DNA of 64,000 nt, taken from the NCBI GenBank assembly GCA_951406725.2, contig OX597815.1, positions 7,812,001-7,876,000 on the forward strand, in the 5' to 3' direction. A program made the position numbers and the translations under genes. Origin of the DNA: Octopus vulgaris (Eukaryota). Each line of letters begins with the position of its first letter. Positions within the stretch are counted from its first letter, which is position 1. The notes beneath the pieces are model-generated. The model saw only the letters and a list, made by a program, of their open reading frames with translations, was not told the DNA's origin and searched no databases. Positions 13,755 through 16,790 of the stretch are shown piece by piece.

Positions 13755-14147
13755 TCTTTTATTCTTTTAGTTGTTTCGGTCATTTGACTGCGGCCATGCT
13801 GGAGCAACGCCTTTTGTCGTGCAAATCGACCCCAGGACTTATTCATTGTAAGCTTAGTACTTATGCTATCGATTCCTTTTGCCGAACCACTAAGTTACGG
13901 GGACGTAAACACACCAGCATCGGTTATCAAACCATGTTGGGGGACAAACACCGACACACAAATATATACACACACACACACACACATACATATATATACA
14001 CATATATACAACAAGCTTCTTTCAGTTTCCGTCTACCAAATCCACTCACAAGGCTTTGGTCGGCCCGGGGCTATAGTAGAAGACACTTGCCCAAGGTGCC
14101 ACGCAGTGGGACTAAACCCGGAACCATGTGGTTGGTAAGCAAGCTAC
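13755..14147 (-). mobile_element. SINE family A, head cut by a retroposon insertion
   Basis: Matches the family up to ggtaagcaagctac; the expected ttaccacacagcc is replaced by the element starting at 14148. Confidence 0.9.
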
Positions 14148-15629
14148 TTTATTTTCAAAAAAGTTTCCAGAAAGGCATGATACAGAGTAGCTTGTGGGCT
14201 GGACAGAAACATTGATGAGATGAATGATGAAATAAAATGATATTAATGGGAGAAGACAAAAAACGCCCCCCGTTTTATGCTTCTCTAAAACATTATTTTT
14301 TACACAAAAAACAAACCGAGGTATTGAACCTCTTACTTCCGTTTTTACAATTATTGGACTTAATAGTCCATTTACAAATTAAAACATTATTATTTTTTAC
14401 GCAAAAACAAAACGTGGTATTGAACATCTTACTTCCGTTTTTACAATTTTTGGACTTTATAGTCCATTTACAAATTGTGGCTTTTCAACCTCTTACAACA
14501 TTATAACACTGGCTTTTCAACCTCTTGTCAATTTTCCTCCCCAGCATCGCTTGTGCCCGTATACTCTACCATCATCCACGCCTCGTTTAAAACCAAGGCG
14601 GGCTCCGAGTCGGCGTCGCCCGGCCACAAGCGATATTCCTCTTTGAGTCCCTCCAGCCTACGTATCACGGGCAACGTTATGGCCTCCACAGCTATCTGCA
14701 GAGGCCATTCGGGTTCCCGTGTGAAAGTTAAAGGTATTCCCTTATAGTGTTTTTCCACCACCTTTTCTACCTCTCCACCTCTGTAGAAGAAGATCAATAA
14801 TTTGTTTTCCTTCGGGGTCGAGGTAGTCAATTCTACCGCTGGCGGCACAATTCCCGCCAACAGTGTGTCTTCCTCTACCGGTGGCATAACCGACGAGGTT
14901 CCGGGATATTCCGGTACTATGACCTTGTTTGTCCTCTCTGTGTTTAGCCCCTTGTGGGTAGAAAAAGAAATAGGTACTATGTCACCGACTGCCGGCAATG
15001 TCCCGTTTTTCTTCCTCTTTTTCATTTTTTCTTCTCAACTGGCGGACCGGGAGATTCGCCTCCCCTCCCTCATCCCTAGGATGCTTCTGTGAGCACCCAT
15101 TATTGCTCACCTTCTTCCTCTTGCGGCCCTTCCTTCAGGATTCCTACTCCAACTCGGCCGCCTTCGTTCCTTCTTCTACAGAAGTCTCCATCAACTGCTC
15201 CAGGACTTTGTTTTGTTCCTGAGGACAGATTTTCTTTATATGGCCAGGCTCCAGGCACCGACGACGCCTGGCCATCCTCAAAAAATCTGGAAGTACCAGA
15301 TTATCGGCTGACTGGGTCCACAGGGTCAAAACTACCTTCGACCCCACCCAATCAGCCAATTGGTATCGAGACATGCCCACCAAAACAACAATTGTCACAG
15401 CTAAGTGAGTCACTCGGCGCGACCGCAACAGACAAATGTCTAAAACCCAGTGAGGATTTCTTATTCGAGAAAAAGAAAACAATATAAAAAAATAGAAATT
15501 CCGCACCGAATCCCTAAAAAGACAGATGCCTACCTTGCAGTCGCGCTTTCAACGGTTCTTTAATTTAAGACGGCTTCCAAGCACGTCTTGACAGTGTTCA
15601 CTCTGACAAACTCACGCATGCGTAAGCGA
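14148..15629 (-). mobile_element. ORF1-only non-LTR retroposon (Tx1/L1-like, non-autonomous), copy 1
   Basis: 5' leader; ORF1 remnants 15506-15144 (CLEPGHIKKICP, a partial gag knuckle) and 15025-14528; ~380-bp 3'UTR ending in AATAAA; 14-bp TSD at 14134-14147 and 15630-15643 with one mismatch; no RT or endonuclease. Confidence 0.75.
14922..14972 (+). mobile_element. 51-bp SINE B tail insertion with a 9-bp TSD
   Basis: ccttgtttgtcctctctgtgtttagccccttgtgggtagaaaaagaaata flanked by GGTACTATG (14913-14921 and 14973-14981). Confidence 0.85.
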
Positions 15630-15643
15630 GGTAAGAAAGCTAC

Positions 15644-16790
15644 TTTATTTCATAAAATTTGCCATGACGGCATTACAAAGTGTAGCTTGCGGGCTGGAGA
15701 GAAACATCAATGAAATGTAGGATGAAAAGAAGCTGAATAAAAATGATATTGATGGGAGAAGACGAAAAACGCCCACCGATCTTTTGCTTCTCTAATACAT
15801 TATTCTTTTTTAAAAAACAAAATAAGGTATTAAGCATCTTACTTTAGTTTATTACAAACTAGCACTATGATCCGGCAACGCCGGGTCATAGTGCTAGTGC
15901 ATGGATATACAGCTGCGTGCGTGCGCACATACACGCGAGTAGTGTCAAAATCCTCGACCAATCACATACAGCTAGCTGGCATTCAATTGGCGTATCAAGT
16001 TTCGGGCATTTTGATTGGGTTTTGGTTAGAAAATTCACAAAAAAAGTCACTTCTGTTGATTTTTTAATGGTTTTGTGGGGTGACTTGGGAAATGTAAAGA
16101 TGTGCACGGCCACCCTTGGACGGTTTTGAATGACCATAGAAAGTGTGAGCCCTCTAACTGAAAAATTGTGGATTTGTATAAAGGACACACACACAGACAG
16201 ACATTTTGTCGTTTATATATATAGAGATGTTTTTTTTTGTCTTTAAAAAGAACACACAAAAATGAGGCAATAAACCTCTTACACAGACTGAGACGCCAAG
16301 TCTCTTCAATCATCCCCTATCGATTCTCTTGCAGCCTGCAGGCAATCCCTCAGCCGCAAGTCGGGGCACCAAAACATATAATTGTAATCTTCTTTCGAAC
16401 AGGACTCCACTATTCGAAGGAACTCTCTCTCTTTCACCACCAGCGCCACCACCTGCGACGGCCAATGCTGATGATCAGTACGGGCCGAGTCCATTAGGTC
16501 CTGACCATCAAGACAGCTCTCAACAAAGTTGTTAAAAACCCATCCCCAAAGATAGAATACCACGTATTCTTTACTTTCACTAGGAGGGGCCATAGCTTCC
16601 TCTGTCGCTGGCACGATTCCCACCAAAGAGGCCTCGGGACATGTTGGCAGTACACTGCACACCTCCGACACTGTACCGTTCTTTTTTTTTTCTTTTTTAT
16701 CTTTGGTGCGGGAGGGATTGGCTCCTTCGCCCCAACCGCAGGAACCTCGCTTCCTCCCGCAACCCCGGGAAACCCTCGGAGAACAACCAT
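15644..16790 (-). mobile_element. ORF1-only retroposon, divergent copy 2 (5'-truncated, interrupted by a Helitron)
   Basis: 3'UTR 15644-15857 aligns with 14148-14350; the ORF ending at 16306 shares LxGIVP, FYxxG, WPxQ and YxxW in order with the copy 1 ORF, preceded by a frameshifted KKKKNGT-like block. Confidence 0.7.
15859..16227 (-). mobile_element. Non-autonomous Helitron
   Basis: Minus strand A|TCTCTATATATATAAAC...TGTCTGTCTG 5' end; hairpin plus CTAG|T 3' end; no TSD. Confidence 0.85.

What the first reader, a model, noticed from the sequence alone, without database searches (positions are those of the whole stretch)
14139..15690. Retroposon 3'UTR carries the reverse complement of its own insertion target
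Seen: about 40 nt inside the 3' end, copy 1 has AGTAGCTTG (plus strand 14186-14194), the inverse of the junction sequence CAAGCTACT (14140-14148). Copy 2 has GTAGCTTGC (15682-15690), the inverse of the target GCAAGCTAC. The element RNA therefore contains CAAGCUAC, able to pair with the target strand that becomes the TSD, and both divergent copies keep it. A given 8-mer in a ~60-nt window is roughly a 1-in-500 to 1-in-1000 chance event, though I noticed it post hoc. Inference: RNA-assisted target selection during target-primed reverse transcription, pairing with SINE A transcripts, or a read-through hairpin that encloses the AAUAAA.
Basis: partly seen in the sequence, partly recalled or inferred. 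Interest (0 to 1): 0.72.

Follow-up and report, generated by a model that had tools for sequence, protein, structure and literature searches.

The report
Retroposon tail complements its insertion target
A multicopy jumping element that inserts at one spot inside another repeat carries, 37 bases before its end, a little-varying 9-10 base complement of that spot, which likely folds back on the target sequence in read-through RNA and would tie the element's copying to its target, though chance is not excluded.

Summary
Two copies of a non-autonomous retroposon (minus strand, AATAAA end, no poly(A) tail, 13-16 bp duplication) sit in tandem at one site in a SINE head. Each carries an inverted 9-nt match to that target about 37 nt inside its 3' end. 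Shuffles give P 0.001-0.03 depending on the search space, but the two copies are homologous and count once. Contigs from four public runs show a multicopy family with a preference for this target. Most depth extends the match to 10 nt, and the 8-nt core has no listed variant (P about 0.03-0.04; full 10-mer not significant). The motif equals the primer strand, so SART1-type priming is excluded. It has no consistent internal partner but pairs with the flank at P>0.9 in modelled read-through RNA. Best reading: a cis hairpin between UTR and co-transcribed target (0.42). Rivals: inherited coincidence (0.3), pairing with the displaced DNA strand (0.12). No covariation could be tested, no reverse transcriptase partner was found, and some copies have other flanks or an altered motif.

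The parts
13755..14149 (-). Host SINE A copy, interrupted in its tRNA-like head; the part of the head upstream of the insertion is not found beyond copy 2
   Evidence: 14 anchor matches in the window; 10 of the 13 others run on through the site uninterrupted. tRNA-like A/B-box spacing read by eye from recalled consensus; no Rfam tRNA hit
14134..14149 (.). Target-site duplication, copy A (13-16 bp; the last two T are shared with the element's AATAAA)
   Evidence: three contigs (records 3, 18, 29) stop matching at exactly 14135
14148..15629 (-). Retroposon copy 1, about 1.48 kb, no reverse transcriptase or endonuclease
   Evidence: multicopy 3' end
14148..14153 (-). AATAAA forming the very 3' end; no poly(A) tract
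   Evidence: Sequence; only 1-nt deletions listed near the junction table 4
14186..14195 (-). UTR motif complementary to the flanking target (9 nt in copy 1; 10 nt in 67-85% of family depth, which reads C at 14195)
14250..14285 (-). Predicted internal 3' UTR stem-loop shared by both copies; its 3' strand is the other low-variation run
   Evidence: no compensatory change in 2 sequences
14286..14476 (-). Tandem duplication of a roughly 95-nt UTR segment in copy 1 (90% identical)
14531..15034 (-). C-terminal remnant of an ORF1-like frame, related to 16309-16812 (26-31% identity)
   Evidence: no homologue
15147..15275 (-). Degenerate CCHC zinc-knuckle segment
   Evidence: Pfam zf-CCHC E=0.022, 15.3 bits, below the 20.8 cut-off
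15630..15645 (.). Target-site duplication, copy B, with one substitution, between the 5' end of copy 1 and the 3' end of copy 2
15644..15857 (-). 3' end of retroposon copy 2
   Evidence: 77% identity to 14134-14350
15682..15690 (-). UTR motif of copy 2
15858..16226 (.). Unrelated insertion with a terminal hairpin interrupting copy 2 (Helitron-like by recall; right boundary approximate)
   Evidence: Self-inverted 15858-15898
16309..16812 (-). ORF1-like remnant, likely the continuation of copy 2

Best explanation
This is a non-autonomous retroposon family with a preference for one site in a SINE head, and its 3' UTR motif likely works in cis by folding back on the target sequence that would be co-transcribed behind the AAUAAA. 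Shown: element anatomy, multicopy state, frequent target flank, the 9-10 nt complement, low variation of its core, and that the motif equals the primer strand. Inferred: because the element stops at AATAAA with no tail, cleavage 10-30 nt downstream (textbook spacing, recalled) would leave about 14-20 nt of target on the RNA; that segment would close a 9-10 bp stem around the last 37 nt. Inferred further: only copies sitting in the right target would make this folded 3' end, which would protect or mark the template end for the partner reverse transcriptase; the free end of the read-through could then anneal to the nicked primer strand and open the stem, giving tail-less precise junctions. Site choice itself is most likely made by the partner's endonuclease, as in Tx1-type elements.
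For: Complement is exact and adjacent to the nick, above chance for one look. In one search (242-316 contigs laid per run, 4 runs, 3 organism labels) 14 of the 32 pieces shown run from the UTR through the target motif; 67-85% of depth extends the match to 10 nt; 14184-14193 has no listed variant, and only 3 of 62 8-nt windows in 14156-14224 are as invariant, all three overlapping the motif. The other long low-variation run (14250-14261) lies in a predicted internal stem, so both of the longest runs are predicted paired. Without read-through the motif has no partner common to both copies; with it, pairing is above 0.9 at 9 of 9 motif bases in copy 1 and 6 of 9 in copy 2. Precedents: element-target pairing in a co-transcript at the R2 5' end (PMC3774820, passages); R1Bm needs downstream target sequence for accurate starts (as stated in PMC7265360, passages).
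Against: Post hoc and effectively one event. The full 10-mer is not significantly conserved (P 0.25-0.34; 15 of 60 windows as low); between the two window copies neighbours are conserved equally. 5 of 45 variant rows, 172 loose-end rows and 1118 pieces were hidden, depth is weighted by collapsed contigs, and the 80% cut-off drops divergent subfamilies. Three contigs in run X6 are clipped at 14192 with extra letters in or beside the motif; five contigs in X3 (loose end at 14167) and records 20 and 30 show or may show other flanks. Copy 2's own flank has a mismatch. Folding z-scores of the read-through RNA were not significant (-0.6 to -1.5). No compensatory change was seen (2 sequences). No transcript was examined.
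Confidence: 0.42

Rival explanations
1. Inherited coincidence: the match arose by chance in the founder and persists because it lies in a 3' end conserved for other reasons (protein binding, recent expansion); the hairpin may form but does nothing.
For: One founding event, found post hoc; P up to 0.03 with a wide search space; equal conservation of neighbours between the two copies; full 10-mer not significantly invariant; motif-altered and off-target contigs exist.
Against: The match is 10 nt in most family depth, sits exactly at the nick, and its core is the least variable stretch of the last 75 nt.
Confidence: 0.3
2. The motif pairs with the displaced (non-primer) DNA strand during target-primed reverse transcription, helping to open or check the target.
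For: The geometry allows it: the motif is complementary to the minus strand over the 10 bases next to the nick; modelled RNA duplex energy -13 to -16 kcal/mol against the intact target sequence. It matches the commonest form of the site (7 of 14 SINE copies have the 9-mer, 4 of 14 the 10-mer).
Against: In read-through RNA the motif would already be occupied in cis; known target choice in this kind of element rests on the endonuclease (PMC4494074, passages); off-target flanks appear.
Confidence: 0.12
3. Historical capture: a fold-back or template switch during one ancestral insertion copied the target in inverted form into the 3' end, and this copy founded the family; non-random origin, no present function.
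For: Explains an exact match beside the nick without selection; local rearrangements are common here (inverted 5'-type piece at 16895-17080, repeat fragments at breakpoints).
Against: Does not predict the low variation of the core; the match stops at 10 nt with no further target-like sequence.
Confidence: 0.07
4. The motif pairs in trans with SINE A RNA, for example to co-package it or modulate its use of the shared reverse transcriptase.
For: SINE and element are on the same strand, so the motif is antisense to the SINE head; the SINE is abundant.
Against: A cis partner 37 nt away would outcompete it; nothing explains why the paired site should coincide with the insertion site.
Confidence: 0.05
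5. DNA-level subterminal inverted repeat read by a protein, as proposed for Dada transposons.
For: Dada subterminal repeats also occur in their RNA-gene targets (PMC3706591, passages).
Against: No transposase, one motif only, 13-16 bp duplication against 6 bp, AATAAA end and knuckle-like ORF.
Confidence: 0.04

Closest known systems
Tx1-clade target-specific non-LTR elements and their passengers (Tx1L in Tx1D, Tx1-Mar and SINEU in Mariner-N4; PMC4494074, passages)
   Same: Preference for a site inside another multicopy repeat, tandem insertion, duplication of the target, knuckle-like ORF1
   Different: No ORF2 here, so clade cannot be assigned; target is a SINE head; 'complementary' does not occur in that paper's main text
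R2 5' HDV-like ribozyme (PMC3774820, passages)
   Same: Element sequence pairs with flanking target sequence in a co-transcript
   Different: There the stem is at the 5' end and part of a catalytic fold; here it is at the 3' end, the element strand comes first, and no ribozyme family was hit
SART1Bm GGUU/AGG motifs and R1Bm read-through (PMC7265360, passages)
   Same: Short target-related 3' sequences of the RNA proposed to anneal at the target
   Different: Those are target-sense and anneal to the primer strand; this motif has the opposite polarity. Only the inferred read-through segment would act as in R1Bm
Dada DNA transposons (PMC3706591 and PMC8869645, passages)
   Same: Insertion in small-RNA-gene sequence; short inverted sequence shared with the target
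   Different: DDE transposase, 6 bp duplications, paired subterminal repeats; none seen here
HAL1-type ORF1-only retroposons (search listing only; definition recalled)
   Same: ORF1-like remnant and a conserved 3' end without ORF2
   Different: No sequence link to L1 ORF1 could be shown

Membership tests
Non-LTR retroposon, non-autonomous | Target-site duplication at both ends | tested here: met
   14134-14149 and 15630-15645 around copy 1, one substitution; not recoverable for copy 2's 5' end
Non-LTR retroposon, non-autonomous | A-rich or AATAAA 3' end, no LTR or terminal inverted repeat | tested here: met
   AATAAA at 14148-14153; no terminal repeats in self-comparison
Non-LTR retroposon, non-autonomous | Dispersed multicopy family sharing the 3' end | tested here: met
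   242-316 contigs laid per run with many distinct variants
Non-LTR retroposon, non-autonomous | Autonomous partner sharing the 3' end | not testable with these tools
   No genome held; no hits in prokaryote, viral or metagenome collections
Tx1 clade | Reverse transcriptase phylogeny and APE endonuclease in ORF2 | tested here: not met
   Copy 1 has no ORF2; membership cannot be claimed, only that it works like a Tx1 passenger
Tx1 clade | ORF1 with CCHC knuckle | tested here: inconclusive
   zf-CCHC E=0.022, under the curated cut-off; no homologues
Tx1 clade | Preference for a site in a multicopy repeat | tested here: met
   14 of 32 pieces shown cross the same target; some other flanks also seen
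SART1-type priming motif | RNA motif complementary to the nicked primer strand | tested here: not met
   Motif is identical to the primer strand
R2-type element-target stem | HDV-like ribozyme fold at the 5' junction | tested here: inconclusive
   No ribozyme family among 103 Rfam matches up to E 5; no dedicated HDV descriptor run
Dada transposons | DDE transposase, 6-bp duplication, paired subterminal repeats | tested here: not met
Functional target-complementary motif | Covariation of motif and flank across subfamilies | not testable with these tools
   One search gives no linked haplotypes; 2 sequences show no compensatory change

The most novel reading that the evidence does not exclude
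The RNA's 3' hairpin swaps partners with the DNA target: the read-through segment anneals to the nicked primer strand while the freed UTR motif captures the displaced strand, so that a eukaryotic retroposon reads both strands of its target by RNA pairing and its site choice is partly programmable from the RNA.
Probability: 0.08. Interest if true: 0.88.

Novelty: new variant of a known kind. Interest (0 to 1): 0.5.

Why it matters
If functional, it adds an RNA-level link between a retroposon and its target at the 3' end: only copies in the right site would make a properly folded template, a feedback that would keep target preference. In the strongest form it would give a handle for re-targeting insertion by changing RNA, of interest for retrotransposon-based gene insertion. 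If neutral, what remains is a SINE-targeting non-autonomous retroposon family, ordinary in kind. Searches listed no paper whose title or abstract describes a 3' UTR complement of the downstream target; subscription papers and Repbase were not searchable, so this is no proof of absence.

Tried and rejected
No whole genome is held for the window. Pattern scans found 0 matches in metagenome, prokaryote (57) and viral (58) contigs, so no independent full loci were obtained. No RNA holder was listed, which says nothing on expression. Rfam gave no tRNA or ribozyme match; the miRNA matches are microsatellite noise. One search used a structure string that was out of register and is disregarded; one search replaced it. 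The 22-nt match at 35008-35029 to the element end lacks AATAAA, target and UTR and is treated as chance. Earlier-finding look-ups returned nothing. Rejected: SART1-type priming (wrong polarity), Dada (anatomy), an internal conserved stem for the motif, hammerhead ribozyme (core absent by eye, recalled consensus; no Rfam hit). Supplements were not read; junction figures in them might show similar motifs in Tx1 families.

Full report
Setting. The window is microsatellite-rich animal DNA with many SINE copies; the repeats resemble cephalopod ones (recalled, not tested; no genome is held).

Observation. The coordinates are right: 14186-14194 is the exact reverse complement of 14140-14148, and 15682-15690 of 14139-14147. 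Copy 2's own flank has one substitution, leaving 7 contiguous pairs. The 3' ends of the copies are 77% identical, so they count as one event, and neighbouring 8-12 nt blocks are shared just as well. With dinucleotide shuffles, a 9-nt inverted match arose in 0.07-1.5% of 1500 trials per setting, or 0.3-3% allowing either orientation, across 15 settings.

Anatomy. A SINE A copy on the minus strand (13755-14149) is cut in its head. Of 14 anchor matches in the window, 13 lack the element; 10 run on through the site, one is diverged and two break off. Copy 1 spans 14148-15629 on the minus strand between two 13-16 bp repeats (14134-14149, 15630-15645). It ends in AATAAA with no tail, holds ORF remnants with a weak zinc-knuckle match (E=0.022, under cut-off) and no reverse transcriptase. 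Copy 2 begins at the second repeat, is interrupted at 15858 by a hairpin-ended insertion, and likely continues at 16230-16810 with a frame 26-31% identical to copy 1's. No protein homologue was found. This is the anatomy of a non-autonomous non-LTR retroposon; a Tx1-type partner is a guess from the likeness to elements described in PMC4494074 (passages).

Family data. Of 24 runs listed, 15 hold part of copy 1 and none holds half of its words. I laid 4 of them (X1, X2, X3, X6; three organism labels) on 14128-14300 at 80% likeness: 242-316 contigs per run. 14 of the 32 pieces shown (1118 hidden) cross from the UTR through the target motif; three stop matching at exactly 14135, the inferred duplication edge. 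3-9% of what was laid runs on unlike the stretch. Against strict specificity: a loose end of five X3 contigs shows the element end behind letters unlike the target, and records 20 and 30 have 195 unshown letters before 14153. No inserted tract is listed at the junction, though SINE depth could mask it in three of the four runs. At 14195, 67-85% of depth reads C, making the match 10 nt. No variant at 5% or more is listed in 14184-14193; 36 of 114 places in 14156-14269 have one (40 of 45 rows shown). The chance that a fixed 8-nt window has none is 0.03-0.04; for the full 10-mer, with two variable places, one a CpG, it is 0.25-0.34; 3 of 62 8-nt windows and 15 of 60 10-nt windows are as low. A 12-nt run at 14250-14261 is equally invariant and not target-like. 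Three X6 contigs are clipped at 14192 with extra letters in or next to the motif. So constraint on the core is suggested, not established.

Geometry. The RNA is the minus strand, so cDNA is primed from the plus strand ending near 14147-14149. The UTR motif has the same sequence as that primer end and cannot anneal to it; the SART1 model (PMC7265360, passages) does not apply. It can pair with the other DNA strand, with SINE RNA, or with target sequence transcribed behind the element.

Folding. If the RNA stops at AAUAAA the motif has weak and different partners in the two copies; with 14 nt of flank it pairs at above 0.9 for 9 of 9 bases in copy 1 and 6 of 9 in copy 2. That follows from the complement and is not independent proof; whole-fragment z-scores are not significant. 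The two-copy consensus fold also has a stem-loop at 14250-14285, which accounts for the other invariant run, with no compensatory change.

Mechanism. Since AATAAA is the last element sequence and no tail is seen, cleavage would fall in the flank (textbook spacing, recalled) and the RNA would carry its partner. I commit to a cis hairpin between UTR and read-through target that marks or protects the template end and favours copies in the right site, with site choice made by the partner's endonuclease (0.42). Element-target pairing in a co-transcript is known at the R2 5' end (PMC3774820, passages), and R1Bm is said to need downstream target. Rivals: inherited coincidence 0.3, pairing with the displaced DNA strand 0.12, fold-back capture 0.07, SINE RNA in trans 0.05, Dada-like DNA repeat 0.04 (PMC3706591 and PMC8869645, passages).

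Literature seen. Passages: PMC4494074, PMC7265360, PMC3774820, PMC3706591, PMC8869645, PMC3747384. Listings only; none listed describes this 3' arrangement in title or abstract start. No supplements were read, and subscription papers and Repbase were out of reach.

Verdict. A real, modestly improbable feature in a real target-preferring retroposon family; function plausible but unproven. New variant of a known kind; interest 0.5.

Noticed in passing
window 16895-17080 (+): A piece related to copy 1's 5' region (85% over 47 nt, weaker beyond) lies inverted relative to copy 2's body, between two SINE A fragments (16803-16899, 17179-17248); possibly an inverted 5' part of copy 2.
   Followed up: partly
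window 15611-15626: Near-perfect 16-nt palindrome at the very 5' end of copy 1; could be a promoter element.
   Followed up: no
window 14920-14976: A 57-nt fragment of a second repeat family, with five other matches in the window, sits inside copy 1's ORF remnant.
   Followed up: no
window about 21700-21790 (-): Another SINE A copy breaks off one base past the same target site and is joined to the second repeat family, hinting that this site is prone to breakage.
   Followed up: no
window 1224-3994 (+): Helitron Rep and PIF1 helicase frames (Pfam E=8e-14 and 2e-65).
   Followed up: partly
run X6, loose end at 14192: Three contigs carry extra letters in or beside the motif; the variant would fit a flank like copy 2's altered one, a possible covariation lead that could not be linked to a flank.
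   Followed up: no
window 14165-14177 and 15661-15673 (-): A small 4-bp hairpin in copy 2, and in most family depth at the matching places of copy 1, lies inside the loop closed by the motif-target stem.
   Followed up: partly
window 18147-18980: Tandem re-duplication of SINE A segments with a period near 280 nt.
   Followed up: no
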